Source: Mobula hypostoma (lineage: Eukaryota). Taken from it: 64,000 nucleotides of DNA. The first letter of the stretch is position 1. Each line of letters starts with the position of its first letter. Made by a program: the position numbers and the translations under genes. Positions 2,711-51,253 of this stretch are shown one piece after another. The notes under the pieces were generated by a model. It made no database searches, was not told the DNA's origin, and saw only the letters and a program-made list of their open reading frames with translations. Location of the stretch: NCBI RefSeq assembly GCF_963921235.1, contig NC_086097.1, forward strand, positions 62,374,001-62,438,000. Direction: 5' to 3'.

Positions 2711-3727
2711 TGTAACAATCTGTTATATTGACTCGTGTATGTCTAGGGGAAATCCCGCCCAGCACCTGCTTCAACACTCCTCTCAGGGTCAGTCGCAGCC
2801 CGAATCAATCCCAAACGTCAATCATCAGCCAGCACACCTAGTAAATTTTAACAAATACACTTCATAGATATTACTAATTCTATGACATTAATATGAATTT
2901 GATACAGAGAGGAAAGTAATGAAAAAAAATGCGCCAACACTTATCAAAGTCCAAGTTCTTCGCGCGCTACCATTGGAGCTCAATCGATTCCGAACGACCA
3001 CCCGGATCCTGTCGACTCACGGCTCGGGACCACCCAGTGTGATCGACCGGAGCCTCTCCGCACGTCCGCTGTCCTCCCCGTCTCTCCTCCGACTCCCCGC
3101 CAAAAACCCCGTCCACCATCCTCCCCTTCTCTCCTCCGACTCCCCATCTCTCCTCCGACTCCTCCCAAAAACCCCGTCCACGGTCCTCTTCGTCTCTCCT
3201 CCAACTCCCCGTCTCTCCACCGACGCCCCCCAAAAACCCCGTCCACCGTCCTCCCCGTCTCTTCTCCGACTCCCCGCCAAAACCTCGTCCACTGTCCTCC
3301 CCGTCTCTCCTCCGACTCCCCGCCAAAACCCCGTCCACCGTCCTCCCCGTCTCTCCTCCGACTCCCCGCCAAAAGCCCCCGCACGTCTGCCGTCCTCCCC
3401 GTCTCTCCTCTGACTCCCCCCAAAAACCCCGTCCACCGTCCTCCTCGTCTCTCCTCCAACTCCCCCCAAAAACCCCGTCCACCATCCTCCCCGTCTCTCC
3501 TCCAACTCCCCGCCAAAACTCAATCCACAGTCGTATCATACAGCACGGTATCCGAAAACAAAACGATACATAACCACCCATTGGCTAATCGAACGCTGCT
3601 ATCTCACTTCAAAGTAATACAAACTGCTAGCGCAAACTCTCTTCAGTGTTTAACACAACAAAGCCGCATTCCCCAGATTAACATAAAGTCGCCATTTTAA
3701 CTCTAACAAAAAGAAAGACCCCGTACA
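2711..3727 (-). repeat. 3' LTR of the PNMA-like Gypsy element (1017 bp)
   Basis: Direct repeat of 6717-9025 outside the minisatellite, with TG...CA ends; preceded on the minus strand by the PPT. Confidence 0.95.
3062..3515. repeat. C/T-rich minisatellite inside the 3' LTR (core ~20-bp unit CCCCGTCTCTCCTCCGACTC)
   Basis: Visible tandem units interspersed with CCAAAAACCCCGTCCACCGTCCT. Confidence 0.9.
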
Positions 3728-3740: not shown

Positions 3741-3869
3741 ACAAAAAGTCATGCCCTCATGACGTTACCATAGTTCACCAGTGCTCTTTGTAAAACACAA
3801 AACCCAACCCAAGTGCATAAAGCAGTGACATAACTTTCCAGGGCAGTAGAGATCACACCCTGCTGTCCC

Positions 3870-4410
3870 AGCACTATATAAGTTAGTCTTTCCGGGGGAT
3901 GCCTACTCCTTTGAGTCCTCTGGACTTCCTCTGCTGACTCTCCCTGTTCAGACACCCCAGGTGACCCTCCACCCCCCCGGCCTATCTGACGAACCTTCCC
4001 CGTCACCGGGACCCCTGTGCCCCTGTGAACCCTCTGGCTCGGGTTCTGGCTCCACCCTCTCCTCTCCCAATTCCGGCTGTACTACACCCTCCCTCGGTTC
4101 CCCTAACTCAGTGATGGAAGGGCCAGGAGTCTCTTCTCCTGGCACTGAGGAATCAGCGAACGGAAGCAGGTACCACACGTCCGAATCATCATCTTCCGAT
4201 GACGTATCCCTTCTCGAGGTGGGGACCGGCCCCATCTCCTTCGCAGCAGGCTCTTCCCTCACCCCGCACCCTCGCAGAGTCCTCGTACTAGGCATAAACT
4301 CCCATTCGGGCTCTGGGTCCATCTTCACCTCTCGACCCAGAGGCAACAGGTGGTTCCGATGGAGTACCTTGACAGGCCCCTGCCCGTCCTCAGGTCTCAC
4401 CCGGTAAACC
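3870..4410 (-). pseudogene. pol: Gypsy integrase C-terminal remnant and acidic pol tail
   Basis: PVYRVRPEDGQGPVKVLHRNHLLPL, then an acidic low-complexity tail and a terminal QRTQRSRHPPERLTY motif typical of Gypsy pol ends. Confidence 0.8.
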
Positions 4411-4511
4411 GGGGAATCTGGGGGTCCCCATCACTAATGCCGCCTCCCCTGGCCGTATCACCTTAGGCCTGGCCTGAGTGCACCACACCGTCCCTCGTTT
4501 GCACTCAGGAT

Positions 4512-5060
4512 CTAGCCCCTGGGGTCACTCACTCCTTTGTACACCGCTCGGAACACGGGGTGTACTGAGAGGGTCTTCAGAAAGTTCTCCCCCGCCGCCT
4601 TCTTATAGGCTCCCAAGAGCCGTCGCGCCAGAGGGGAGTTAGTCCCCACTAGCAGGGCAGCACCACTGGTCTCCACCGGGTCCAGACAGACCAACACCAG
4701 CGTCTCAAAGGCTTCCGACACTCCCACATCTCCCTCTGAAAATTCCAATCTCACTGACAAGTATCCATCGTACGGGTAATCACCATCACTTATGCCCCAA
4801 ATCTCCAATGCGTTAAACGGAGTTACTGGCAAATGCTTCAGATATTTGTTGTAGAACAACCGGTACAGTAAGGTAACCTGCAATCCAGTGTCAAGGATGG
4901 CTTTCACAAAGATTCCCTCTATCCGTAGGGACACGCTGGAACGGGGTCCCACCAATCCATCAGGAATTTGGGCTTGTTCTTTCTGGGGTTCCATAGTGGG
5001 TTTCTGGGAACGTGTTCCTCCCAAGACTCCAGTCCGTTCCCTCACTGAGCCTCTCCTAAG
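4512..5060 (-). pseudogene. pol: Retropepsin-type aspartic protease, in the -1 frame relative to gag
   Basis: VSLRIEGIFVKAILDTGLQVTLL contains the catalytic DTG; downstream ALLVGTN. Ends at a TAG at 4512 shortly before the pol deletion. Confidence 0.9.
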
Positions 5061-5066
5061 TTTCCC
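5006..5066 (-). promoter_or_regulatory. Programmed -1 ribosomal frameshift signal (G GGA AAC plus predicted H-type pseudoknot)
   Basis: Slippery heptamer at 5066-5060 is in gag phase, followed by a 6-nt spacer. Stem 1 GAGGCUCAG/CUGGAGUCUU, stem 2 GGGAACG/CGUUCCC. A -1 slip enters the protease ORF. Confidence 0.8.
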
Positions 5067-6645
5067 GACACCTCTCCCTTCTTGGTGTCCCGGGGGCCCT
5101 CCCCCCTCGGAGCATCTCGTCTCTCACAATCCCTCGGCAAGTGGCCAGCTTCCCCACAGCGGTAGCACGCCCCCAGCCACTCACATTCCCGGCAGAAATG
5201 CCCCTCTCTCCCAGAGTTATAGCACCTACTACCCACCGCCTCTCTCCTCCCGATACGGCCCCCCGGGGACCCCTTGGATTTCTCTGATCTCACCCCGGCT
5301 ACCACCTCCTGAACCGCTGAAGACCGTCCCCAGGGGTCCGAGCCCCCTGGTCGGCCCGAAGCACTCTCCTCGGCCTGTACCTCTCGGATCAGCTGTCCGA
5401 ATGATGGAGGGGGGTTCCACTTAAATGACTGCCGTACACTCCAAGCCACCCTGTCATCCTCCCGGGAACCGCTACATATCTGGCTCATCCTTAACTCTGC
5501 CACTTCATCCGCCCTCACTACCCCTCGTCGCCGCAGCCCCGTAAGCTTCCCTTCCAGCCTGAAAGCATAGTCTGAGAGCTTTTCCCCTCTTCTCTGCCGA
5601 TCCGTTGAAACTCTGCTACATGTTGCAAGGGATCTCCTGACAGTCCAAACACTTCCTCCAAAGCGTCCAAACACTCCGATAGGGAAGCTGAAGGGCATTC
5701 CGCTCTCAAATCACGGACCACACGGGACGCCCCGCCCCTTAAGCTTTCCACCAATCGCTGTCTCTTTTCCTCATCCAAAACTGGCCACACCTCTAACAAC
5801 TGGGGAAGCCTTTTAGGACCGAGATTAGGAAAAACTTCTTCACACAGAGAGTGGTGAATCTGTGGAATTCTCTGCCACAGCAAACTGTTGAGGCCAGTTC
5901 ATTGGCTATGTTTAAGAGGGAGTTAGATATGGCCCTTGTGGCTACAGGGGTCAGGGGGTATGGAGGGAAGGCTGGGGCGGGGTTCTGAGTTGGATGATCA
6001 GCCATGATCATAATAAATGGCGGTGCAGGCTCGAAGGGCCGAATGGCCTACTCCTGCACCTATTTTCTATGTTTCTATGTTTCTATGTAACTGGGATGTA
6101 TCCTCAACCCAGGTCTCATATTCATCCTCCCCTTCCGGGGTGGGCCTGGCTCCCGAGAAAATTCTCAGCTTCGGACGGGGCCCCTCAACCCTTCTCGCCA
6201 GGGAGGTAATGGCAGCTGCTAACTCAGAGGTCTCAGCCCTAACTGGGGGACGGGGCCTGGCCAAGCCTTCCCACTCCACACCTCCAGCCCTGGCTACTGG
6301 CACCTTCCCTGGGGCCTCATCTAGCTCCTCCTCCGACACCTCCTCACTTTCGTCCTCCGGGAGGGTGTGGAGACCCCACGGCCCTGCCTCCCCCTGGACA
6401 TGGACTGTCGCTGGTAGTTCCAAAGTAATGACGTCGACACTCGTCCGCACCAACATCCAGCTGGACTCCAGTTCTTTCCCACACCTTCTAGCTATAAGTT
6501 CTACCTGCCCGATACCTTTAATCAGACTCAACCCTCGCACCAGTATATCTGCCGGAATGCGATAATCGACCCCACTTAACACGCACGCATGATTCACCGG
6601 TACCTCTACCAATTCACACCAATTTACAATCTTATCTCGATCCAT
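5042..6645 (-). pseudogene. gag: PNMA (paraneoplastic Ma)-like Gag with two zinc knuckles, interrupted by a CR1 insertion and one frameshift
   Basis: ATG at 6645: MDRDKIVNWC...; KLRIFSGARPTPEGEDEYETWVEDTSQL/LEVWPVLDEEKRQRLVESLRGGA; QRRGEKLSDYAFRLE; CYNSGREGHFCREC (degenerate) and CYRCGEAGHLPRDC. Frameshift near 5600. Confidence 0.9.
5805..6088 (+). mobile_element. Young CR1 3' end (284 bp) inserted in gag
   Basis: About 4 mismatches to 43500-43783. (TTTCTATG)n tail. Duplicated AACTGGG at 5798-5804 and 6089-6095. Confidence 0.95.
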
Positions 6646-6716: not shown

Positions 6717-9025
6717 TGTAACGTTCCGTTATATTGGCTCGTATATGTCTAGGGGAAATCCTGCCCAGCACCTGTCTCAACACTCCCCACAGGGTCAGTC
6801 GCCACCCGAATCAATCCCAAACATCAATCATCAGCCAGCGCACCCAGTAAATTTTAACAAGTACACTTTACAGATGTTACTAATTCTATGACAGTAATAT
6901 AAATTTGATGCAGAAAGGAAAGTAATGGAAAAAAACGGCGTCAACACTTATCAAAGTCCAAGTTCTTCGTGCGCTACCGTTGGAGCTCAATCGATTCCTG
7001 ATGACCACCCGGATCCTGTTGACTCACGGCTCAGGACCACCCAGAGCGATCGACCGGAGCCTCTCCGCACGTCCGCCATCCTCCTCGTCTCTCCTCCGAC
7101 TCGCCCCCAAAAACCCCCGTCCGCCATCCTCCTCATCTCTCCTCCGACTCCCCGTCAAAACCCCATCCACCGTCCTCCTCGTCTCTCCTCCGACTCCCCA
7201 CCAAAACCACGTCCACTGTCCTCCTCGTTTCTCCTCCAACTCCCCGTCTCTCCTCCGACTCCCCGTCTCTCCACCGTCCTCCTCGTCTCTCCTCCAGCTC
7301 CCTGTCTCTCCTCCGACCTCCTCGTCTCTCCTCCGACTCCCCGTCTCTCCTCCGACTCCCCGTCTCTCCACCGTCCTCCCCGTCTCTCCTCCAACTCTCC
7401 ATCTCTCCTCCTACTCCCCGTCTCTCCACCATCCCCCTTGTCTCTCCTCCGACTCCCCGACTCTCCTCCGACTCCCTGTCTCTCTTCCGACTCCCTGTAT
7501 CTCCACCGTCCTCCTCGTCTCTCCTCTGACTCCTCGTCTCTCCTCTGACTCCCCATCTCTCCTCCGACTCCCCCCCAAAAACCCTATCTACCGTCTTCCT
7601 CGTCTCTCCTCCAACTCCCCGTCTCTCCTCCGACTCCCTGTCTCTCCTCCGACTCCTCGTCTCTCCTCCAACTCCCCGTCTCTCCTCCGACTCCCTGTCT
7701 CTCCTCCGACTCCCCGTCTCTCCTCCGACTCCCCGTCTCTCCACCGTCCTCCTCGTCTCTCCTCCAGCTCCCTGTCTCTCCTCCGACCTCCTCGTCTCTC
7801 CTCCGACTCCCCGTCTCTCCTCCGACTCCCCGTCTCTCCACCGTCCTCCCCGTCTCTCCTCCAACTCTCCATCTCTCCTCCTACTCCCCGTCTCTCCACC
7901 ATCCCCCTTGTCTCTCCTCCGACTCCCCGACTCTCCTCCGACTCCCTGTCTCTCTTCCGACTCCCTGTATCTCCACCGTCCTCCTCGTCTCTCCTCTGAC
8001 TCCTCGTCTCTCCTCTGACTCCCCATCTCTCCTCCGACTCCCCCCCAAAAACCCTATCTACCGTCTTCCTCGTCTCTCCTCCAACTCCCCGTCTCTCCTC
8101 CGACTCCCTGTCTCTCCTCCGACTCCTCGTCTCTCCTCCAACTCCCCATCTCTCCTCCGACTCCCCCCCAAAAACCCCGTCCACCGTCCTCCTCGTCTCT
8201 CCTCCGACTCCCCGTCTCTCCTCCTACTCCCCGTGTCTCCACTGTCCTCCTCGTCTCTCCTCTGACTCCCCGTCTCTCCACCGTCCTCCTCGTCTCTCCT
8301 CTGACTCCCCGTCTCTCCTCCGACTCCCTGACTCTCCTCCGACTCTCTGTCTCTCCTCCGACTCCCTGTATCTCCACCGTCCTCCTCGTCTCTCCTCTGA
8401 CTCCTCGTCTCTCCTCTGACTCCCCATCTCTCCTCCGACTCCCCCCCAAAAACCCCGTCCACCGTCCTCGTCTCTCCTTCGACTCCCCGTCTCTCCACCG
8501 TCCTCCTCGTCTCTCCTCCGACTCCCCCCCAAAAACCCCATCCACCGTCCTCCTCGTCTCTCCTCCGACTCCCTGTCTCTCCCCCAACTCCCTGTCTCTC
8601 CTCCGACTCCTCGTCTCTCCTCCAACTCCCCATCTCTCCTCCGACTCCCCCCCAAAAACCCTGTCCACCGTCCTCCTCGTCTCTCCTCCAACTCCCCGTC
8701 TCTCCACCATCCTCCTCGTCTCTCCTCCGACTCCCCGTCTCTCCTCCAACTCCGTCTCTCCTCTGACTCCCTGTCTTTCCACCATCCTCCCTGTCTCTCC
8801 TCCGACTCCCACAGTCAATCCACAGTCATATCATACGGCATGGTATCCGTAAACAAAACGATACATAACCACCCATTGGCTAATAGAACGCTGCTATCTC
8901 ACTTTAAAGTAAAACAAACTGCTAGCACAAAATCTCTTCAACGTTTAACACAACAAAGCCGCATTCCCCAGATTAACCTAACAAAGTCGCCATTTTAACT
9001 CTAACAAAAAGAAAGACCCCGTACA
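6717..9025 (-). repeat. 5' LTR of the PNMA-like Gypsy element (2309 bp, expanded)
   Basis: Same unique flanks as 2711-3727; the extra length lies in the minisatellite. Confidence 0.95.
7068..8810. repeat. Expanded C/T-rich minisatellite (~1.75 kb) with a 470-bp higher-order duplication
   Basis: Tandem ~20-bp units; identical blocks are offset by 470 bp (for example 7552 and 8022). Confidence 0.92.
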
Positions 9026-9419
9026 CCTCCACTGCTTCATTGGGCAGAGAACTCCACAGATTCACTACTCTCTGGGAAAAGCAGTTCCTCCTCATCTCTG
9101 TCTTAAATCTACTCCCCCGAATATTGAGGTTATGTCCCTTAGTTCTAGTCTCACTTACCAGTGGAAATGACTTTCCTGCCTCAATCTTATCTATCTCTTT
9201 CATAATTTTACATCTTTCTATAAAATCTCCTCTCATTCTTCTGAATTCCAGTGAGTACAGTCCCAGGTGACTCAATCTCTCCTCATAATCTAACCCCCTC
9301 TAACCCCCTGTATGTATGTGTCTGTGTATGTATGTAGTGTGTGTGTGTCCCAAAGTAGCATATTGTGACATATATGTATGTACTTTTATAATAAATTTAT
9401 TTTGAATTTGATTTTCTCA

Positions 9420-16988: not shown

Positions 16989-18497
16989 GGTCATTTCAAT
17001 CATATATTTTACATTGTATTAGTTGCTCTGCTTCTTCTTTTGCTGATTAAACTATTCCTCATCACACTTCTTTGTTCCATTTAAGACTGAGGTAATCTAC
17101 AACTGGAATCTACATGAATTATCTGGTCACCTATTAGATATTCTGTTTGTTTCCATGGCATTGTCCTTTGAAAGTTTCAACCTCTCCTTTTTCTTGTTCC
17201 CTAATAAACTTGATTCAAATTGTATAAGTCATCAGTATGTTCCTGTTAAACACTATATTTGTTTTATATCAAACTATTTGTCTACTACCAAAATTAACAA
17301 GGCAATCTAAATTACTACCTTGACCATCACAATTTGCAAGTATTAAATATTATTCTGCTTCAGCACATTTGTTGCAATTAATATCTTTTGACTAACTGAC
17401 CTCGCTTGTTTGTTTTCAGATCTTACAGAATGTTAATAAAGGTCAGACTTGCCTCAATAACCTTTACACCCCTGTTCCATCACAATAATGATATTAAACC
17501 ACATCAAGAAAATTTTAAACCATACATATGCGTTTAAGACATTTCCCTGCCTGTCTGGACTACCGCTTATGGCTCTGTGTAATCCTACAACCAGAAAGAA
17601 GGCAGAAAGATCCATGCAAATTTTGAAAGCTTTAAAGAAAAACAGGCATTCTGAAGTTTACTCCTTCACAATGAATCATCCATTGACTAACTTCTTGCTT
17701 CAATATACTTCGGCTACACTTTCTACTATTGGTTTTACTCTGACAGAGCTGCTAAGACATGCTTTTCTTCATATGTGACTGAGTTTGGTACAAACTTAAT
17801 TTAGAAGGAGAATAAGGAGGCAAGAATTGAAGCAAAAGACAATATTTTGACTGAGTAAGGCAGTAAGAGTCCCCAGATCAGGAAATACGTGCAAAAGTCA
17901 TCAATGGGACCTTAGTGAAATAAAATAAAATCTGTATTTCAAAAAAATACTAATCTGTACCAGAAATACCACAAAGCACATCAAACCATTTTAGCAGTGC
18001 ACATGTAGATACTGAAAAAATGTCTGAGAATAATTCTATTCCTGGAAACAACATAGATTCAGGAATCACAGAGTAAAGGTGAGTGAAGCCAATTAGCGAA
18101 AACCCTAGATGGGATAGAGTTCTTCAAATACGTTCAGGAAAGTTACCTTAATCAGTCCGTAGAAGTCCCAAGGAGAGAGTGTGCGATACTTGATGTTCTA
18201 TTAGGGAATGAGACAGAGCAAGTGACAGAAGTTTGTGTAGGGAACACTTTGTATCTAGTGATCATAATGCCATTAGTTTCAAAGTAAATATGGAAAAAAG
18301 ATAAGTCTGGTCTGTGGGCTGTCATTGTAATCTGAAGGAAGGACAATTCTGATGGTATCAGAAAGGATCTGGCAAGTGTGGATTAGGACAGGCTGTCTTC
18401 TGGAAAAGCTGTATCTGGTAAATGGGAGGCCTTCAAAAATGAAATTTTGAGAGTACAAAGCTTGTATGTGCCTGTCAGAATAAAATGTAAAAATAAC

Positions 18498-21400
18498 TGT
18501 AATGTATGGATCTAGTTCTTTCAGAGCAAAGACTCCCCTTACCACTACTTATGGACTGATAACTTACCTATGTGCATTGATCTATTGTCTATGCATGCAC
18601 ATTAATCTGTTCTCTCTCTCTCTCTCTCTGCAACATGAATACACGAGTTAACCTCATCTCTCTGTGTGTGCCTTTATTTATTTGATATGTAGTTGTACAG
18701 ACACAACAAATTGGCGACAAGTACGGACCTGAATATCAGAGGTTATCAGCAATGGCACCCACAGTTACAGGATGACAGAATTTGGAGGAAGGATGAGAGA
18801 CAGTGAGAGGAAAGTTAATCAGTATGGAAAAAACTGTCACAGATGCTAACAAAGGGATGCAAGCGTGAGGAACTGCATAGTACAAAGTGAAGATACACAA
18901 CTAACAAAGCTAAAGTGAAAATAATGTGACAATAGCATTAGTCAGAAAAGTTGATGAATTTGATAGTGCTAATGTAGGTCAAGAGGGTTGAACTGTATTG
19001 TAATGCAAATGACATGGATGAGGAAAAGAAAAACCCCACACCTCTTAAATTAACACTCCACACTTCTTAACTTAATGGGTGCTAAAATGTATAGGTTTTT
19101 GTGCAACATATTAACTCCTGAAAAGGCAGCAAGCAAAATGTTCAACAAAATTGTTACAACTTTACAAAATCAATTGAGCCCTAAACTGCTGATAACAGCT
19201 GAGAGATTTAGATTTCACAAATGGAGCTAGTCAAAAGGTGAAAGCATTTCTGAATACATGCAGAACTATGCAAACTTTCCCAATACTCTGACTTTGGAGA
19301 TGCTAAAACCTACACAGGTGAAAAGAGTCCCACAAAGGCAAACTGAAAGTGAATGTGATGTATGGTGGCAAAACACAGCAGTTAGAGCTTTATGTGTTCA
19401 AAAGTGGAAGGACAGCACTTTTTGGATGTGAATGGTTGAGAAAATCCAACTAGACTAACACACAATCAAAGCTTCCAATGTGTCATCAACAGGCAACTGC
19501 AGCCGAGATGGTAGCACTAATCAGAGACCAAAACAGCTGCTTAATGTTAACAAGAAGGTGTTTGAGTAGGGTATTGGTAAACTCAAAGGCATGAAGGCCA
19601 GAATTGAACTGGATGAAGCAGCAACACTAAGATTTCATAACACATGTCCAGTGTCTTATGCACTACATCTAAAAGTGGATGCTGAACTTCAGAGTTCGGA
19701 GGTGTCTGGCATTCTCTTCAGGGTTGAGTGGAGTGATTGAGCCATGCCCATTGTCCTGGTGGTCAAGAAAGGGAAGGCTTGCGCTATTCGCATATGGGGG
19801 GATTTGAAAGTGAGCATCAACCCTGTGCTGTGTACTGTGCAGTATTCCCTGCCATGAACAGAAGACACTTTGGCATTTTTGGCAGGTGAGGAGAGGTTTT
19901 CAAAGATTGCCTTGTCACTAGCCTATCTGTAAATGGAAATTGAGAAGTCAAGCAGGAAGTTCCTCACAATCAACATTCACAAGGGACTGCTCCAGTATAA
20001 TCGTCTCATCTTTGGCGTCACATCAACTCCAGTAATTTAGCAGATAGCAATGGACCAAGTGCTCCAAGGTATACCAGGAACACAATGTTACCTTGATGAA
20101 TTCATCGTGACTAGCAAGAATGATGAAGAGCACCTCTGGAATCTTAGTAAGTGTTTCCTAGGCTGAGTGAGTATGGTCTGCATGCAAAGAGAGAGAAATG
20201 TGAGTGTTTCAAGAATGAAATCTCATATTGTGGACATGTCATGGACAAGTATGGCTTGCGTAAGTCACAAGAGAAGACTGAAAGAGTGCTACAGGCACCC
20301 AAACTGGAAGATGTGTCACAACTCAGGTCATACTTGGGACTTGTGATCTACTACCACAGGTTTCTCCCAAAGATTGCTACAGTAGTGCATCCATTGAATC
20401 CACTGTTACAGGTAGGAGCAAAGTGGGAATGGTCAGAAATATGTGAAAGAGCATTCAAGGAAACGAAAAGACTAATGACATCAGATGAACTGCTCAGATG
20501 TATGGCTCTATTTCTTTTAGAGCGCAATGGCTCCCATTAGCACTACATATAGTTTGTTGTCCACATATGTGTATTGATCTCTCTCTCTCCCTCTCTCTCT
20601 CTCTTTCTCTCTCGCTGCAATGTAAGTACACCAATTAAAGCCATCTCCTGTGAGCATGCATTTATTTAGTTGATCTGTAGTTGCACAGACACAACACCTT
20701 TATGATCCATCTTTGCCTTTCAGACTGGCATGCAACGCATCCCCTTATGGTATTGGTGCCATATTGTCACGCACTATGAAAGATGGATCTGAATGTCTGA
20801 TTGTGTTTGTTTCAAGATCACTGATGTGTGCAGAATGCAACTACACAGAAAGAGGCCCTTAGTCTAGCATGGGGAATAAAGAAGTTCCACCACTGCCTTT
20901 TGGACAAAAGTTTACTCTAGTGACAGACCACCAGATCCTAGTGTCCATTTTCAATCCCAGGAAGGGAATCCCAGTGATGACTGCTATCCGGTTGCAATGT
21001 TGGGCACTTTTCCTAGGAGCTCACTCTTATGACATAGAGTTCAAGGGTTCCAAACAACACGGCAATGCTGTCATCACTTCCACAGTTGGCAACTGAAAAA
21101 AAAATGTCTTCATGCTGTGACCCAACAGAGGTGTTTCACAAAGCATTGATGGACCAGGTGCCACTGCCAAATTCTGAAATACAAAGAGAAACAAGGAATG
21201 ACCTAACATTGTCAAAAGTCCATGACATCACCATGTAAGGATGGCTAACTCATGGGAACCTCATGTTTCCAGAGTTCTCAGTGAGATGAGACCAACTGTC
21301 AATGCCTCAAAGGATGCTGATGTGTGGCTCCTGTGTCATTGTTCCCTCTAAACTGCGCAACAGAGTGTTAGAGAATCTGCACGAAGGACACCTGGGTACA

Positions 21401-22837
21401 GTCAAGATGAAGAGTCTCACCCAGGGCTAAATCTGATGACTGGAAATAGATAGACAGATTGAAGATTTGGCCAAAAGCTGTTTGGGATGCTGCAAAGTTC
21501 AAAATGCACCACCACAGGCACCGTTACACCCATGGGAGTGGCCATCTTCACCATGGCAAAGAGTGCATATTGACGTTGCTAGGCCAGTTATGGACTCCAT
21601 GTTTCTGATTGCTGTGGATGCTCATTCAAAGAGACTGGAGAAGGTCATGGCAATGATGTCAATCACATTAGAAAAGACTGTTTCCATTCTGAGGACTATC
21701 TTCTCCAGAAATGGCTTGCCTGAACAAATTGTGAGTGAAAACAGACCACAATATACGTCAGAAGAGGTTAAACGATTCATTAAAAAAAATAGCATCAAAC
21801 ATTTCAAGTCTGCTGCTCATCGCACAGCGACGAAGGGGTTAGCTGTAAAGTATGTCCAAACTTTCAAGGTCTGTTAAAGTTATGGACAAAGAGGATATTT
21901 CTCTACAACACAAGGTGGACAGCTTCCTTCTTGTGTTTCAGAATTCTGTTCACACGACAACAAATCAAACACCAGCAATGCTGTTCATGTGCAGGAATCC
22001 TAGATTTCGCATAGACCCTCTGAAACCAGATCTATGGACGGAAGTGTAGAATAAACAGTCAACCAGTTGTCAAGTGAATCAACAAGGAGCTTTGAGATTG
22101 GACAGGAAGTCCTAGTGCGTGATTACTGAGAAGACAAGTGGACACCCAGTGGGATAGCTACAAGAACTGGACCACTGACGTACACAGTGGACATTGGAGA
22201 TCATACATGGAGATGTCACATGGTCCAGATACTGGATGCTCAGCTGAGGGATGCACATGAGTCGACTGTATCCATCAACACAGACAAATTACAGCCACTG
22301 GAATTACCTCTGAGTGATGATCATGTCACTAAACAGCAACATGACACCTGCAACAGAGAAAGTTGTCTTTGACAGGACACCGGCCAAACCTGATGCCACT
22401 CCACAGGTCCAGAGGAGCTATCCTGAAAGACATAGGGCACCACCTAAAAACCTGAATCTTTAGTATAGTGAAGTTAGCTATGGACTGTTACTGTAAAAGC
22501 ATGTTTGAATGTGGTTTGTTAGAGGGAAGTTAAATGTTTTGTTACATATATAGTTTTATATTATATTAATCTAAAGGGGGAGGAAATTTAATGTATGAAT
22601 CTATTTCATTTGGAGCAATGCCTCCCCTTAGCACTACTTATGGATTGATAACTTACCTATGTGTGTTCATCTGTTTTCTTTCTCTACCCCTGAACCCCTC
22701 TCCCCCTCTTTCCCTCTGTCCCTCTCTCCTTCTCCTCTCTCTTTCTCCCTCTCCCTCTCCCTTTCCTTCTCCCTCCCCCTCCTCCCTCCCTTGTGCATAC
22801 CTTTATTTAATTAATATGTAGTTGTACGGGCACAACA
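18498..22837 (+). mobile_element. Ty3/Gypsy (Mag-like) LTR retrotransposon, decayed gag-pol
   Basis: LTRs at 18498-18708 and 22587-22837. 5-bp TSD ATAAC at 18493-18497 and 22838-22842. PBS TGGCGAC at 18712; PPT AAAGGGGGAGGAAA before 22587. Gag ITAERFRFH, RT YLDE, RNase H ACNASPYGIGAIL, integrase PWEWPSSPWQRVHID. Confidence 0.93.
20497..20696 (+). repeat. Related LTR nested in pol of the Mag-like element
   Basis: gatgtatggctctatttc...(CT)n...tgtagttgcacagacacaaca resembles both flanking LTRs; it interrupts TSDELL/YDPSLP. Confidence 0.85.
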
Positions 22838-23744
22838 ATAACAAGTGTAGGGTACCTTGGTTTTCAAGAGATATTGAGGCTCTGGTTAAGGGAAAAAAGG
22901 AGGTGCATAGCAGGTACAGGCAAGTAGTAACAAATGTGGAGTTTATGGAGTATAAGAGATGCAAGAGAACATTTAGGAAATTAGGAAGACATGAGGTTGC
23001 CACAGCAGACGGGGGAAGGAGAATCCTAAGGGATTCCAAGGACATGTTAAGAACAAAAAGATAGCAAGGGACAAAAGTGGTCCCCTGGAAGATCAGAATG
23101 GTAATTCATTCATAGAACCAAAAGAAATTGGGAGATCTTAAATGGATTTTTTGAATCTGTATTTACTCAGGAGACAGACACACACTGTATACAGAAGTGG
23201 ACCCTTTACAGATTACAGAGGAGGAAGAGTTTGCTATCTTGAGGCAAAGTAGAGTAAATTAATCCTCAGGGCTTACAAGGTAATCCATTGGATCCTGTGG
23301 GAGACATGTGCAGAAATTGCAGGAGCCCTAACAGAGATCTTAAAATCATCCTTAATGGCAGGTGGGGTGCAAGAGCACCGGAGGATAGCTTATATTGTTC
23401 TGCAGTTTAAGAAAGAATCTAAAGTAAACCAAGAAATTAGAAGCCAGTGAGACTAACATCAGTAGTGGGAAAGTTATTGGTATTCTAAAGGACCAGATAT
23501 ATTGGTATTTGGATAGATATAGTCTGGTTAGGGATATTCAGCATTGCTTTGTGCATATCAGGTCGTGTCTAACCAATTTTATTGAGTTTTCAAGGAAGTT
23601 ACCAGGAAAGTTGATGAAGGCAACACAGTATATGTTGTCTACGTGGACTTTAGCAAGGCATTTGACAAGGTCCCGCATGGGAGGTTGGTCAAGAAGCTTC
23701 AGTCGCTCAGCATTTAGGAGGAAGTAGTAAATTGGATTAGACAA

Positions 23745-39878: not shown

Positions 39879-41007
39879 AGAGAAACATAGAAACATAGAA
39901 AATAGGTGCAGGAGTAGGCCATTCGGCCCTTCAAGCCTGCACCACCATTTATTATGATCATGGCTGATCATCCAACTCAGAACCCTGTACCAGCCTTCCC
40001 TCCATACCCCCTGATCCCCGTAGCCACAAGGGCCATATCTAACTCCCTCTTAAATATAGCCAATGAACTGGCCTCCACTGTTTCCTGTGACAGAGAATTC
40101 CACAGATTCACCACTCTCTGTGTGAAGAGGTTTTTCCTAATCTCAGTCCTAAAAGGCTTCCCCTTTATCCTCAAACTGTGACCCCTTGTTCTGGACTTCC
40201 CCAACATCAGGAACAATCTTTCTGCATCTAGCCAGTCCAATCCCTTTAGGATTTTATGCGTTTCAATCAGATCCCCCCTCAATCTTGTAAATTCCAACGA
40301 GTACAAGCCTAGTTCATCCAGTCTTTCTTCATATGAAAGTCCTGCCATCCCAGGAATCAATCTGGTGAACCTTCTTTGTATTCCCTCTATGGCAAGGATG
40401 TCTTTCCTCAGATTAGGGGACCAAAACTGCACACAATACTCCAGGTGTGGTCTCACCAAGGCCTTATACAACTGCAGTAGTACCTCCCTGCTCTTGTACT
40501 CGAATCCTCTCGCTATAAATGCCAGCATACCATTTGCCTTTTTCACCGCCTGCTGTACCTGCATGCCCACTTTCAATGACTGGTGTATAATGACACCCAG
40601 GTCTCGTTGCACCTCCCCTTTTCTTAATCGGCCACCATTCAGATAATAATCTGTTTTCCTGTTTTTGCCACCAAAGTTGATAACTTCATACTTATCCACA
40701 TTAAATTGCATCTGCCATGAATTTGCCCACTCACCCAACCTATCCAAGTCACCCTGCATCCTCTTAGCATCCTCCTCACAGCTAACACTGCCACCCAGCT
40801 TCGTGTCATCCGCAAACTTGGAGATGCTGCATTTAATTCCGTCATCCAAGCCATTAATATATATTGTAAACAACTGGGGTCCCAGCACTGAGCCTTGCGG
40901 TACCCCACTAGTCACTGCCTGCCATTCTGAAAAGGTCCCGTTTATTCCCACTCTTTGCTTCCTGTCTGCTAACCAATTCTCTATCCACATCAATACCTTA
41001 CCCCCAA
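39879..41007 (-). mobile_element. Young CR1, 5'-truncated, open frame from mid-RT to stop
   Basis: Uninterrupted IGGKVLMWIENW...KFADDTK...GIRGYGGKAGTGF*; tail (AGAAACAT)n on +. TACTG is duplicated at 39874-39878 and 41008-41012. Confidence 0.96.
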
Positions 41008-42075
41008 TACTGCTTAACAAGTTAAGAGCCCACGGTATTAAAGGAAAGATACTAGCATGACAGAAGATTGGCTGACTGGCAGGAGGCAAAATGTGGGAAT
41101 AAAGAGAGTCTTTTCTGGTTAAGCTGTTGGTGACTAGTGGTGTTCCGCAGGGTCCAGTTTTGGGTCCACTTCATTTTACGTTATATGTCAATGGTTTAGA
41201 TGATGGAATTAATGACTTTGTGGCCAAGTCTGTGGAGGAAACAAAGATAGTTGGGGAGGAAAGTAGTGTCATATTGGCAAGGATTCTGCAAAAGGACTTA
41301 GACAGATTAGGATAATGGAAAAGAAGTGGCAGATTGAATATAACGTATGATTTTACACGTTGGTTGGAGGAATAAAGGCATTGACTATTTTCTAAATCGG
41401 AAGAAAATGCAAACATACGAGGTACAAAGGGGCTTAGGAGTCCTTGTGCTGTATTCCTGCAAGGTTCTCTAAAGGTTAATTTGCGCTAAGTTGGTGGTGA
41501 GGATGGCAGATGCAACGTTAGCATTCATTTCAAGAGGAATGCTGAGGCTTGATCAGGCAGTTTTAGGCCCCTATTCTAGGAAAAGATGTGCTAGCTTTGC
41601 AGATAGTCCAGAGGAAATTCACAAGAATGATTCTGGGAACAAAGTGTATGAGGAGTATTTGATGGCTCTAGGCATGTATTCACTGGTTTTTAGAAGAATG
41701 AGGGGGGATCTCATTGAAACCATTCAAATATTAAAAAGCCTGGATAGAGTGGATATGGTGAGGATGTTTCCTATAGTGGGAGCATCTAGGACAAGAGGGC
41801 ACCACCTCAGAATCAACTGCCATCCATTTAGAACAGAGAGGAGGAGCAATTTCTTTAGCCTGTGGGTAGTGATCCTATAGAATTCTTTGGCACAGATGGC
41901 TGTGGAAGCTGAATCATTGGGTGTATTTAATGAAGAGGTCGGTTGGTTCCTGATTAGCATGGGCATCAAAGATTATGGGGAGAATGCAGGAGAATGGGGT
42001 TAACAGGGATAATAAATCAGACATGATGGAATGGCAGAGCTGACTCAATGGGCTGAATAACCTAATTCTTATCCT

Positions 42076-43683
42076 ATGTTTTATGGTCATATGGTTGAAA
42101 GGTTCAGAGGGTCCAGTGAGATGGAGGAACTGAGTGAAATACATGTTAGTAGGGAAGTGGTGTTAGGTAAATTGAAGGGTTTGAAGGCAGATAAATCCCC
42201 AGGGCCAGATGGTCTGCATCCTAGAGTGCTTAAGGAAGTAGCCCAAGAAATAGTGGATGCATTAGTGATAATTTTTCAAAACTCATCAGATTCTGGACTA
42301 GTTCCTGAGGATTGGAGGGTGGCTAATGTAACCCCAATTTTTAAAAAAGGAGGGAGAGAGAAACCGGGGAATTATAGACCGGTTAGCCTAACGTCGGTGG
42401 TGGGGAAACTGCTGGAGTCAGTTATCAAGGATGTGATAACAGCACATTTGGAAAGCGAAGAAATGATCGGACAAAGTCAGCATGGATTTGTGAAAGGAAA
42501 ATCATGTCTGACGAATCTCATAGAATTTTTTGAGGATGTAACTAGTAGAGTGGATAGGGGAGAACCAGTGGATGTGGTATATTTGGATTTTCAAAAGGCT
42601 TTTGACAAGGTCCCACATAGGAGATTAGTGTGCAAACTTAAAGCACACGGTATTGGGGGTAAGGTATTGGTGTGGGTGGAGAATTGGTTAGCAGACAGGA
42701 AGCAAAGAGTGGGAATAAACGGGACCTTTTCAGAATGGCAGGCGGTGACTAGTGGGGTACCGCAAGGCTCAGTGCTGGGACCCCAGTTGTTTACAATATA
42801 TATTAATGACTTGGATGAGGGAATTAAATGCAGCATCTCCAAGTTTGCGGATGACACGAAGCTTGGCGGCAGTGTTAGCTGTGAGGAGGATGCTAAGAGG
42901 ATGCAGGGTGACTTGGATAATTTGGGTGAGTGGGCAAACTCATGGCAGATGCAATTTAATGTGGATAAATGTGAAGTTATCCACTTTGGTGGCAAAAATA
43001 GGAAAACAGATTATTATCTGAATGGTGGCCGATTAGGAAAAGGGGAGGTGCAACGAGACCTGGGTGTCATTATACACCAGTCATTGAAAGTGGGCATGCA
43101 GGTACAGCAGGCGGTGAAAAAGGAGAATGGTATGCTGGCATTTATAGCGAGAGGATTCGAGTACAGGAGCAGGGAGGTACTACTGCAGTTGTACAAGGCC
43201 TTGGTGAGACCACACCTGGAGTATTGTGTGCAGTTTTGGTCCCCTAATCTGAGGAAAGACATCTTTGCCATAGAGGGAGTACAAAGAAGGTTCACTAGAT
43301 TGATTCCTGGGATGGCAGGACTTTCATATGAAGAAAGACTGGATGAACTGGGCTTGTACTCGTTGGAATTTAGAAGATTGAGGGGGGATCTGATTGAAAC
43401 GTATAAGATCCTAAAGGGATTGGACAGGCTAGATGCAGGAAGATTGTTCCCGATGTTGGGGAAGTCCAGAACGAGGGGTCACAGTTTGAGGATAGAGGGG
43501 AAGCCTTTTAGGACCGAGATTAGGAAAAACTTCTTCACACAGAGAGTGGTGAATCTGTGGAATTCTCTGCCACAGCAAACTGTTGAGGCCAGTTCATTGG
43601 CTATGTTTAAGAGGGAGTTAGATATGGCCCTTGTGGCTACAGGGGTTAGGGGGTATGGAAGGAAGGCTGGGGCGGGGTTCTGA
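42076..43683 (+). CDS. Open reading frame of a young 5'-truncated CR1 ORF2: intact RT domain, no endonuclease
   Basis: 535-aa frame with no stop: KSPGPDG, PGNYRPVSLTS, YLDFQKAFDKVPH, GVPQGSVLGP, KFADDTK. The first few codons come from the tail of the older CR1, so expression is doubtful. Confidence 0.85.
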   Translation: MFYGHMVERFRGSSEMEELSEIHVSREVVLGKLKGLKADKSPGPDGLHPRVLKEVAQEIVDALVIIFQNSSDSGLVPEDWRVANVTPIFKKGGREKPGNYRPVSLTSVVGKLLESVIKDVITAHLESEEMIGQSQHGFVKGKSCLTNLIEFFEDVTSRVDRGEPVDVVYLDFQKAFDKVPHRRLVCKLKAHGIGGKVLVWVENWLADRKQRVGINGTFSEWQAVTSGVPQGSVLGPQLFTIYINDLDEGIKCSISKFADDTKLGGSVSCEEDAKRMQGDLDNLGEWANSWQMQFNVDKCEVIHFGGKNRKTDYYLNGGRLGKGEVQRDLGVIIHQSLKVGMQVQQAVKKENGMLAFIARGFEYRSREVLLQLYKALVRPHLEYCVQFWSPNLRKDIFAIEGVQRRFTRLIPGMAGLSYEERLDELGLYSLEFRRLRGDLIETYKILKGLDRLDAGRLFPMLGKSRTRGHSLRIEGKPFRTEIRKNFFTQRVVNLWNSLPQQTVEASSLAMFKRELDMALVATGVRGYGRKAGAGF

Positions 43684-43785
43684 GTTGGATGATCAGCCAT
43701 GATCATAATAAATGGTGGTGCAGGCTCGAAGGGCTGAATGGCCTACTCCTGCACCTATTTTCTATGTTTCTATGTTTCTATGTTT
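42096..43785 (+). mobile_element. Young CR1 LINE copy
   Basis: Intact RT frame, 3' UTR hairpin GGCTGAATGGCC and (TTTCTATG)n tail; near-identical to 39879-41007 and 5805-6088. Confidence 0.97.
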
Positions 43786-49660: not shown

Positions 49661-51253
49661 CAGGTTTCCCCTGCCATCCGAAGGTAGAGCATTCCTATGA
49701 AACGGTTCGTAAGCCAGAATGTCGTAAAGCGAAGAAGCAATTACCATTTATTTCTATGGGAAAATATTGTGAGCATTTGCAGACCCAAAAATAACCTACG
49801 AAATCATGCCAAATAACACATAAAACCTAAAATAACGGTAACATATAGTAAAAGCAGGAATGATATGATAAATACATAGCTTATATAAAGTAGAAATACT
49901 TCTCCACAATCATTGCCTGAACTGTCCTCCATAGCGAAAATCTCACGCAAGTGCCGTGGCAAAAACATGGCGCAAGCGCTCTCCAGTAACCTTTAAGCTA
50001 TGAAGCTGCCAAATCATACCAAATAATATGTAAAAATACACAGACGATATAAAGTAGAAATAATGTATGTACTGTGTAGTATCACTTACCGGAATTGGGA
50101 AAGCGCAGAGCACACTGATGATGGTGTGCTAGGCTGAGTCGTCGCAGATTGGGGTGGTGCAGTGGCCCCCACCCTCCAGGCAGTGACCCGATACATTGCC
50201 GCGAAGCATGCAATGGTACAGTGGTAGCCGGAAGGCACACAGCACATCTTTAAGAAAAGAGGCAAAATAAACATGCCAATTAATTAGGTGCCGCCCGGCA
50301 CGTAATTGTCGGCCCAGATCAGTGCCGATTGTCGATTGCATCGCCTCTGATCTGGGCCGACAATTACGTGTCAGGTGGCACCTAATTAATTAGCATGTTT
50401 ATTTCAGCTTTTTTCTTAAAGATGTGCTGTGTGTCTCCCAGCTACTGCTGCATTCTCCGCGAATCGGTATGTATCCGCGGGTTGAGGTGGTGAGACACTG
50501 GGGTGTCATCTCATCATCTGTTTCCATTAGAGCAAGCAGCTCATCTTCTCCTATGACTACCCCCCTCGATGTCCAAGGTAGAGGTTCGTCGTCTGCTGTT
50601 GCTGATGTGGAAGGCTCGCTTGACTGCTTAGCCTCGTGCATTTTTCTATCATACAGTTCTTTGCAAGGGCTCAAACTATCTTGCAAATATCCCCTAAACC
50701 GACGTACCCTTTCAAAATTAAAGTCGTACTTTATCATTACTCATTCGGTTTTGATTGTTATCCTTTCCTCTTCCAATTGCATCAGCTCCTCATCTATCAG
50801 TTCTTGGTCATGGGATGCCAAAATCTCTTCAACATTATCTTCGTCAGCTTCCACAAACCAAACTCACTTAGTCCTTACTTCGTTCACCACGATCAAAATG
50901 CTTAATTATTCCTAGTTTTGCGCTAAGTGTAACACCTTTACGAGCTCTTTCAGGCTTTTCCAATACCTTTGAACTCATCTTGCTAACAGCTGCTCACAGG
51001 CATGTGTTTAAGCAATGCCAGCGAGAATGTAGTTCTGAATCTGGGGGAGAGTGGCTTCTCGGGGAGCACGCTGCCTTTTATCGCATGCTGATTTTTTTTG
51101 CGCGCTGCCTTTTATCACGCGCTGATTTTTTTCGCGAGCTGCTTTTTCGTAACAGTGAAAACACCTTCTGTTAGCGAAAACAGGGTACTAATGTAGGTCT
51201 TTCGTAACAGTGAGGTTTCATAAAGCGAACGTTTGAAAAGCGGGGGACACCTG
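49661..51253 (-). mobile_element. Tigger/pogo-type (Tc1/mariner) DNA transposon, internally deleted
   Basis: Imperfect TIRs CAGGTTTCCCCTGC and CAGGTGTCCCCCGC (reverse complement) with TA TSDs. Minus-strand transposase N-terminus (RARKGVTLSAKLGIIKHFDRG) is joined to the C-terminus (EEILASHDQELIDEELMQLEEE...KYDFNFERV); no DDE core. Confidence 0.88.
50224..50445. repeat. Long palindrome (~100-bp arms, ~24-nt loop)
   Basis: Arms at 50224-50322 and 50347-50445 are near-perfect reverse complements. Confidence 0.92.

What the first reader, a model, noticed from the sequence alone, without database searches (positions are those of the whole stretch)
5006..5066. Intact -1 ribosomal frameshift cassette: G GGA AAC plus H-type pseudoknot
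Seen on the minus strand: gag reads ...TCG GGA AAC TTA, placing the X XXY YYZ heptamer in phase. After a 6-nt spacer (UUAGGA), GAGGCUCAG can pair with CUGGAGUCUU, and loop GGGAACG is perfectly complementary to downstream CGUUCCC. The gag UGA lies in loop 1, and the -1 frame (LRRGSVRERTG...) is open into the protease. Established: PEG10 and PNMA3 use GGGAAAC plus a pseudoknot. Inference: this represents the ancestral transposon form of that recoding signal.
Basis: partly seen in the sequence, partly recalled or inferred. Interest (0 to 1): 0.7.

Follow-up and report, generated by a model that had tools for sequence, protein, structure and literature searches.

The report
Frameshift signal in dead fish retrotransposon
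A broken jumping gene, probably in a ray, still carries the textbook 'slip back one base' signal between its coat and enzyme genes; fish relatives keep the same signal, and it sits where the mammalian gene PNMA3 has its own, so it is a real but expected feature.

Summary
The anatomy is exactly as reported: in-phase G GGA AAC, 6-nt spacer, 9-bp stem 1 (one bulge, two G•U), gag UGA as loop 1, perfect 7-bp stem 2, -1 frame open into the protease; 1 of 3000 shuffles matches it. It is the gag-pol junction of a PNMA-type (Barthez/Gypsy12-like) Ty3/Gypsy LTR element, probably of a ray. An open-framed teleost-type relative has the same layout with compensatory stem-1 changes, and 94 of 109 related Gags end Gly-Asn + 5 residues + stop. 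The signal is real for the family. This copy is dead: a CR1 insertion and a frame change break gag upstream, RT/RNase H/integrase are deleted, and stem 1 is weakened. 'Ancestral' is half right. Macaque PNMA3 has its Gly-Asn 19 residues after the zinc knuckle (here 20), which fits shared descent of the slip site. But PNMA3 groups with a turtle element, not this clade, and has no stop at that place. PEG10 is a separate lineage. Frameshifting was not measured. New member of a known kind.

The parts
5060..5066 (-). Slippery heptamer G GGA AAC, in phase with gag
   Evidence: identical in L001; no variant row shown (40 rows hidden)
5054..5059 (-). 6-nt spacer
   Evidence: same length, 2 of 6 identical in L001
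5045..5053 (-). Stem 1, 5' arm (9 nt)
5042..5044 (-). Loop 1 = gag stop codon UGA
   Evidence: UAG at the same place in L001
5035..5041 (-). Stem 2, 5' arm (7 nt)
   Evidence: 7 of 7 identical in L001
5023..5032 (-). Stem 1, 3' arm (10 nt, one bulged G), preceded by 2-nt loop 2 at 5034-5033
5013..5022 (-). Loop 3 (10 nt; 13 nt in L001)
5006..5012 (-). Stem 2, 3' arm (7 nt)
   Evidence: kept in loose ends of 3 of 4 runs
6717..9025 (-). 5' LTR (2309 nt, TG...CA, with a long internal tandem array)
5042..6645 (-). gag pseudogene (PNMA capsid, two CCHC knuckles), broken by a CR1 insertion and a frame change near 5580-5600
5802..6088 (+). 3' piece of a CR1-like LINE inserted in gag; 99% identical to 43497-43783; brings the first stop of the gag frame (6069)
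4512..5066 (-). Start of pol in the -1 frame: linker and aspartic protease, ending at a frame change near 4520-4535
3752..4521 (-). pol remnant with deletion junction near 4400-4420 (RT, RNase H and integrase absent), then the pol C-terminal tail
2711..3727 (-). 3' LTR (1017 nt), preceded by a polypurine tract at 3737-3728
9026..9029 (-). 4-bp target-site duplication (other copy 2710-2707); the flanks are consecutive parts of an older CR1-like LINE

Best explanation
The cassette is the programmed -1 ribosomal frameshift signal of a PNMA-type (Barthez/Gypsy12-like) Ty3/Gypsy LTR retrotransposon family. In working members, ribosomes reading gag reach G GGA AAC while an H-type pseudoknot 6 nt downstream blocks the mRNA entrance. 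Most unwind it and stop five codons later at the stop in loop 1, giving Gag. A minority slip back one base on the Gly and Asn tRNAs and read Leu-Arg-Arg-Gly... into protease-RT-RNase H-integrase, giving Gag-Pol. Shown: sequence anatomy, frame relation, conservation of site and stop position, pairing-preserving changes. Inferred: that the pseudoknot forms and that slippage occurs. This genomic copy is a fossil: the signal is a decaying remnant of the family's mechanism, not a maintained host feature.
For: Gag and Pol are in 0/-1 frames with the heptamer in phase. L001 has open gag (469 aa) and open pol (1521 aa, -1 frame) and the same heptamer, 6-nt spacer, 9-bp bulged stem 1 (9 of 9 WC), stop in a 3-nt loop 1, 2-nt loop 2 and 6-bp stem 2. 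Its stem-1 pair 2 is G-C against A-U here, and pair 4 is A-U against G•U. Swapping arms between the two elements drops pairing to 7 of 9 and 8 of 9. 94 of 109 Gags with an intact C-terminus end G-N-x-x-x-x-x-stop, against at most 3 G-N at any other offset (10 of 119 set aside). In 16 Pol-frame peptides that span the cassette, all 17 stem-1 pairs fixed by amino acids alone are valid, and the outer stem-2 pair is G-C in 3 and U-A in 4. In contigs of 4 runs no variant row is shown in the heptamer or the stem-2 arms, and two listed stem-1 variants would turn G•U into G-C or A-U if the partner is unchanged. Dead copy: first stop after 192 codons, inside the CR1 insert; frame changes in gag and pol; about 1040 residues of Pol missing; LTR divergence K2P 0.07-0.11; stem-1 hairpin -6.9 against -14.2 kcal/mol in L001.
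Against: No frameshift assay, no probing, no pseudoknot-aware folding. Only two full cassettes were seen as DNA (window, L001). The inner six stem-2 pairs are identical in both, which protein constraint could also explain; the outer stem-2 pair is unpaired in 9 of 16 peptides and in L001. The 16 peptides were picked by a pattern that contains the stem-2 codons, and 3 are piranha near-copies. A common U-to-C variant at 5048 (14-68% of depth) has no partner change among the 40 rows shown (40 hidden), and variants are not linked. The loose end of run X5 does not keep the stem-2 3' arm (agreement 0.68). In this copy a local hairpin between loop 3 and the stem-2 3' arm competes with stem 2. The cassette is no more conserved than the protease at DNA level (42 of 61 against 207 of 300).
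Confidence: 0.9

Rival explanations
1. The heptamer is a real slip site, but the stimulator is the stem-1 hairpin alone; stem 2 is conserved only because it encodes Glu-Arg and Arg-Ser of Pol.
For: Inner stem-2 pairs show no two-sided change in DNA; stem 1 forms with high probability in nested folds of both elements; the outer pair is broken in 9 of 16 peptides.
Against: The 3-4 residues of loop 3 vary freely while the codons of both arms stay; the residue changes in the arms (Arg to Trp in 2, Glu to Gly in 1) are compatible with G•U pairs; the outer pair swaps G-C/U-A; diverged contigs in 3 of 4 runs keep the 3' arm while loop 3 changes.
Confidence: 0.07
2. Gag-Pol is made by another route (splicing around the stop, read-through, or an internal start), and the pseudoknot is chance in a G-rich stretch.
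For: Database gene models join gag and pol into one protein (P0001, P0003-P0005); the nested fold is no better than shuffles.
Against: Read-through cannot change frame. The gene models are predictions that use the -1-frame peptide G-K-L, which is the heptamer itself. Chance is 1 of 3000, and the layout recurs in L001 with different letters.
Confidence: 0.02
3. This copy is a domesticated PNMA3/PEG10-like host gene that keeps the frameshift under selection.
For: The cassette and the protease frame are open; databases name ray relatives 'paraneoplastic antigen Ma-like'.
Against: Both LTRs and a target-site duplication are present; gag is interrupted; the protease active-site motif differs at one position from that of all 29 of 33 listed relatives that have the region; hundreds of related contig pieces lie in single runs; stem 1 is weakened.
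Confidence: 0.01

Closest known systems
PNMA3/PNMA5 (Ma3/Ma5) -1 frameshift signal of placental mammals
   Same: Same heptamer followed by an H-type pseudoknot (PMC11299033, PMC5009743 passages). Homologous Gag (Pfam PNMA; PNMA2 structures E 2e-24 to 4e-25 for a close ray relative). Gly-Asn 19 residues after the knuckle in macaque PNMA3, 20 here.
   Different: PNMA3 gag runs 15 residues past Gly-Asn, not 5; no Pol follows; PNMA3 groups with a turtle element, not this clade. Stem and loop lengths of the PNMA3 pseudoknot could not be compared (table is an image; supplements gave no sequence).
Barthez / Gypsy12_DR-related Metaviridae (RBD-CA-NC Gag) of fish, amphibians and reptiles
   Same: PNMA-type Gag with CCHC knuckle; PR-RT-RNase H-IN order in the close relative P0001; named as PNMA progenitors in PMC3406341, PMC3670739 and PMC11011659.
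   Different: Clade name assigned from the Gag family, not from an RT tree with named reference elements. The passages read do not describe a frameshift signal for these elements.
PEG10/Edr -1 frameshift signal
   Same: Same heptamer, H-type pseudoknot, gag stop in loop 1, protease in the -1 frame (PMC13622457 passages).
   Different: Separate domestication from a sushi/chromovirus-type lineage; no chain named PEG10 among the 49 PDB sequences matched. Likeness of mechanism; descent not shown.
Retroviral gag-pro/gag-pol GGGAAAC pseudoknots (SRV-1, MPMV, JSRV, HERV-K10, FIV, visna)
   Same: Same heptamer, 6-7 nt spacer in most, H-type pseudoknot (PMC3835772 table passages).
   Different: Mostly shorter stem 1 (6-7 bp), 1-2 nt loop 1 and no interhelical loop; unrelated Gag. 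Shows that the heptamer recurs independently.

Membership tests
-1 programmed ribosomal frameshift signal (heptamer + pseudoknot) | X XXY YYZ heptamer in phase with the upstream ORF | tested here: met
-1 programmed ribosomal frameshift signal (heptamer + pseudoknot) | Stimulator 5-9 nt downstream | tested here: met
   6-nt spacer in window and L001; ranges
-1 programmed ribosomal frameshift signal (heptamer + pseudoknot) | Open -1 frame encoding a homologous downstream protein | tested here: met
   protease frame 5123-4512; whole Pol open in L001
-1 programmed ribosomal frameshift signal (heptamer + pseudoknot) | Stem 1 supported by compensatory change | tested here: met
   two DNA sequences plus amino-acid-fixed pairs; one unresolved variant at 5048
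-1 programmed ribosomal frameshift signal (heptamer + pseudoknot) | Stem 2 supported by compensatory change | tested here: inconclusive
   outer pair G-C 3, U-A 4, unpaired 9 of 16; inner pairs identical or compatible
-1 programmed ribosomal frameshift signal (heptamer + pseudoknot) | Measured frameshifting that depends on site and structure | not testable with these tools
   needs a reporter assay
PNMA-type (Barthez/Gypsy12-like) Ty3/Gypsy element | LTRs with TG...CA, target-site duplication, polypurine tract | tested here: met
PNMA-type (Barthez/Gypsy12-like) Ty3/Gypsy element | PNMA capsid plus CCHC knuckle | tested here: met
   PF14893 above cut-off in two gag pieces, PF00098
PNMA-type (Barthez/Gypsy12-like) Ty3/Gypsy element | N-terminal PNMA_N (RRM-like) domain | tested here: inconclusive
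   no Pfam hit for the window's N-terminus; 26.6 bits against cut-off 27 for the L001 Gag; precomputed hit in relative P0157
PNMA-type (Barthez/Gypsy12-like) Ty3/Gypsy element | PR-RT-RNase H-IN order and RT placement in the Barthez clade | tested here: inconclusive
   deleted in this copy; order met in P0001; no RT tree with named references was built
Autonomous (working) element | Open gag up to the slip site and complete pol | tested here: not met
Direct progenitor lineage of PNMA3 | PNMA3 nested in or sister to this clade | tested here: not met
   p-AU 0.002; sister rows are a turtle element and one unnamed row; quick trees, PNMA3 on a long branch
Direct progenitor lineage of PNMA3 | Same pseudoknot anatomy as PNMA3 | not testable with these tools
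   no PNMA3 nucleotide sequence was obtained; stop position differs
PEG10/sushi lineage | Gag of the sushi/chromovirus type | tested here: not met
   Gag is PNMA-type; separate lineages

The most novel reading that the evidence does not exclude
The G GGA AAC slip site about 20 codons after the zinc knuckle is the ancestral state of the whole PNMA-type Metaviridae clade (rays, teleosts, a frog, a turtle, echinoderms), and mammalian PNMA3/PNMA5 inherited it at that position. Within the clade the recoding strategy then switched: a ray/teleost group keeps a conserved, apparently undescribed pseudoknot with the gag stop as loop 1, one group moved to a Leu-Asn site with the stop at or just after it (U UUA AAC inferred), and another fused gag and pol in frame. 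The ray/teleost cassette would then be a living proxy against which to ask what PNMA3 kept after losing Pol.
Probability: 0.55. Interest if true: 0.45.

Novelty: new member of a known kind. Interest (0 to 1): 0.3.

Why it matters
[quoted passage not shown] Its modest value: it defines the cassette of a large fish clade with covariation support, none of 9 literature searches listed a description of it, and it ties the PNMA3 slip site by position to mobile relatives. The role of frameshifting in PNMA3/5 is called unclear in PMC11011659; natural relatives with a real Pol downstream give a comparison set. It also suggests why databases mis-model these elements as single 'paraneoplastic antigen' genes.

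Tried and rejected
No whole genome is held for the window, so copies could not be counted or aligned. Locus searches with the single protease found nothing in metagenome or viral contigs (0 of 259 and 0 of 14 candidate stretches); with the alignment 0 of 66 viral, 0 of 51 prokaryote and 1 of 41 metagenome stretches. A cassette pattern gave 32 viral-contig matches; none encodes a related Gag or protease, so they were rejected as chance. Rfam: 4 matches, all far below gathering score. Protein atlas: best 0.89, zinc knuckle only, uninformative. Sequencing runs: no RNA holder listed, no evidence either way; only 4 DNA contig sets of the 24 runs listed were laid. The two other top-scoring heptamers (61820, 62432) lie in AT-rich sequence with no Gag or Pol match. 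Two papers asked for were not held; the primary PNMA3 paper and the 2003 survey were seen only as cited, 67 passages. Supplements of PMC11299033 and PMC11011659 (the latter cut when stored) gave no heptamer match; bioRxiv supplements were not seen; alignments there could bear on the PNMA3 comparison. No covariance model was built: two DNA cassettes are too few. Earlier-findings look-ups: two empty, one with two partial hits.

Full report
Observation. Stem 2 is 7 of 7 Watson-Crick. Stem 1 has 9 pairs, one bulged G and two G•U. The -1 frame is open from 5123 to 4512. One of 3000 dinucleotide shuffles reached S1>=9 with S2>=7 (thresholds chosen after the fact). Three of 509 heptamers in the window reached the same score in a looser scan. 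A nested fold alone is unremarkable (z -0.03).

Context. The cassette is the gag-pol junction of an LTR retrotransposon running from 9025 to 2711: two LTRs with TG...CA ends, a polypurine tract and a 4-bp target-site duplication inside an older CR1-like LINE. Gag carries the Pfam PNMA capsid and a CCHC knuckle. The closest proteins are from Mobula and Hypanus (74-79% identity), so the host is probably a ray (inference; no genome is held). A close ray relative's Gag hits PNMA2 structures at E 2e-24 to 4e-25 and MOAP1 at 8e-4; no chain named PEG10 was among 49 matches. PNMA genes are traced to Gypsy12_DR/Barthez elements and PEG10 to sushi/chromoviruses (PMC3406341 and PMC3670739, passages; PMC11011659, passages, section 8 part 1 and sections 9-10).

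This copy is dead. A young CR1 piece (5802-6088, 99% identical to 43497-43783) sits in gag and brings a stop after 192 codons; a frame change follows near 5580-5600. Ribosomes starting at the gag AUG cannot reach the slip site in frame. Pol changes frame near 4520-4535 and jumps from about residue 211 to 1255 of a full-length relative, so RT, RNase H and integrase are gone. The protease active-site motif differs at one position from that of the 29 of 33 relatives that have the region. The unique parts of the LTRs differ by K2P 0.069 and 0.112 (212 and 364 aligned bases). The stem-1 hairpin scores -6.9 kcal/mol against -14.2 in L001, and its first pair is G•U where 96-100% of laid depth in 4 of 4 runs has the base that gives G-C.

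Conservation in DNA. One relative was obtained as DNA, L001 (1 of 41 candidate stretches; protease 62% identical). It has an open 469-aa gag and an open 1521-aa pol in the -1 frame. Its cassette has the same heptamer, a 6-nt spacer, a 9-bp all-Watson-Crick stem 1 with one bulge, UAG as loop 1, a 2-nt loop 2, a 13-nt loop 3 and a 6-bp stem 2. Pair 2 changes on both sides and pair 4 on one; pairs 5-6 differ with a shifted bulge, so they are not strict column covariation. Swapped arms pair 7 of 9 and 8 of 9 instead of 9 of 9. Identity is 42 of 61 in the cassette, 23 of 60 just upstream, 26 of 44 downstream and 207 of 300 in the protease. Contigs of four runs (514, 470, 19 and 32 pieces; 4 of 24 runs listed) show variant rows inside the cassette only at 5022, 5023, 5042, 5048, 5050 and 5056; none in the heptamer or stem-2 arms, but 40 rows were hidden and variants are unlinked. 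The 5050 variant (13-28% of depth) would make G•U into A-U. The 5048 variant (14-68%) has no partner change among rows shown, which is unresolved. The 5042 variant (7-49%) removes the UGA. Loose ends in 3 of 4 runs keep the stem-2 3' arm beside a changed loop 3; the fourth does not (agreement 0.68). Loose ends in two runs (agreement 0.64) suggest a subfamily with a G_GA-type first triplet, a variant listed as tolerated in PMC5009743 (passage).

Conservation in proteins. Of 119 Gag homologues of L001, 109 have a knuckle near the C-terminus; 94 of these end Gly-Asn + 5 residues + stop, and no other offset has more than 3. Of 34 Pol-frame records, 16 span the cassette (14 start downstream or are spliced models, 4 lack the protease motif; selection used a pattern containing the stem-2 codons). 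All 17 stem-1 pairs fixed by amino acids alone are valid. The outer stem-2 pair is G-C in 3, U-A in 4 and unpaired in 9; pair 6 is U•G in 2. Three of the four U-A rows are piranha near-copies. Loop-3 residues vary freely.

Mechanism. Established for this signal type (PMC5009743, PMC11299033, PMC3835772, passages): tandem slippage on the heptamer, stimulated by a structure 5-9 nt downstream. Applied here by inference: most ribosomes stop in loop 1 and give Gag; a minority give Gag-Pol through G-N-L-R-R-G. Reported rates for PEG10 and PNMA3 are 8.5-11% in one study and about 20% for Ma3 in another. Nothing was measured here.

Ancestry. A profile search returned 150 representatives, 91 with a knuckle and a tail of 8-89 residues (47 had no knuckle, 11 long tails, 1 truncated). 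Gly-Asn lies 17-24 residues after the knuckle in 31 of 91; 24 of 91 stop five residues after it; 35 of 91 have Leu-Asn near the end instead (24 exactly at the end). One row is macaque PNMA3: Gly-Asn at 19 residues (window 20), then 15 residues to the stop. That this Gly-Asn is the PNMA3 slip site is inferred from its place and the published heptamer, not from DNA. In a quick tree of 98 rows (rows without a knuckle, with short N-termini and three odd rows left out; labels by pattern, a few loose; midpoint root for drawing only) Gly-Asn types are spread widely, and the Leu-Asn group (36 rows) and the in-frame group (14 rows) are each compact. PNMA3 joins a turtle element (support 87, 99 in a hand-picked 32-row tree). 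Holding PNMA3 with the 11 ray/teleost rows is rejected (p-AU 0.002), with the caveats that the group was named after the first tree and PNMA3 has a long branch. So the slip site is plausibly homologous, while this pseudoknot with its loop-1 stop is a cousin form. PEG10 also has its stop in loop 1 (PMC13622457, figure legend), but it is another lineage, and the heptamer recurs in eight retroviruses in the table passages read.

Novelty. Nine literature searches (listings and abstract starts) listed no description of this cassette in fish elements; the library lacks most subscription papers, and the primary PNMA3 paper and the 2003 retrotransposon survey were seen only as cited. Rfam has no match. 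The mechanism is textbook. Verdict: real, family-conserved, non-functional in this copy, new member of a known kind; interest 0.3.

Noticed in passing
window 19675-20964 (+), with repeats at 18495-18590 / 22584-22679 and 18663-18709 / 20651-20697 / 22792-22838: A second, more distant and degraded Gypsy pol fragment (RT/RNase H, about 30-34% identical to P0023/P0002), between repeats that may be old LTRs.
   Followed up: no
window 2967-3584 and 7024-8830: Both LTRs hold a tandem array of 19-20 and 46-nt units whose length differs greatly, making the 5' LTR 2309 nt and the 3' LTR 1017 nt.
   Followed up: partly
window 39881-41010 and 42650-43779: Two 1130-nt CR1-like copies, 96% complementary, in inverted orientation; same young subfamily as the piece inserted in gag.
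   Followed up: no
window 6716-6695 (-): Primer-binding-site-like stretch right after the 5' LTR; resembles a tRNA-Pro site (recalled, not tested) but looks interrupted.
   Followed up: no
window 50219-50450: Inverted repeat with 111-nt arms, 86% complementary, 10 nt apart; possible hairpin or small DNA element.
   Followed up: no
proteins P0079, P0082, P0118, P0119, P0128; window 5042: The loop-1 stop is not obligatory: two Gags read five residues further, three stop right after Gly-Asn-Phe, and a variant removing the UGA is seen in contigs.
   Followed up: partly
proteins P0001, P0003, P0004, P0005, P0027, P0030: Database gene models fuse gag and pol into single proteins, several named paraneoplastic antigen Ma-like; probably mis-modelled frameshift junctions (inference).
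   Followed up: partly
proteins P0162-P0301: PNMA-type Gags show three junction types that cluster on the tree: Gly-Asn, Leu-Asn with an immediate stop, and in-frame gag-pol.
   Followed up: partly
L001 1-7446: A teleost-type element with open gag and pol lies in the metagenome collection, probably host DNA.
   Followed up: no
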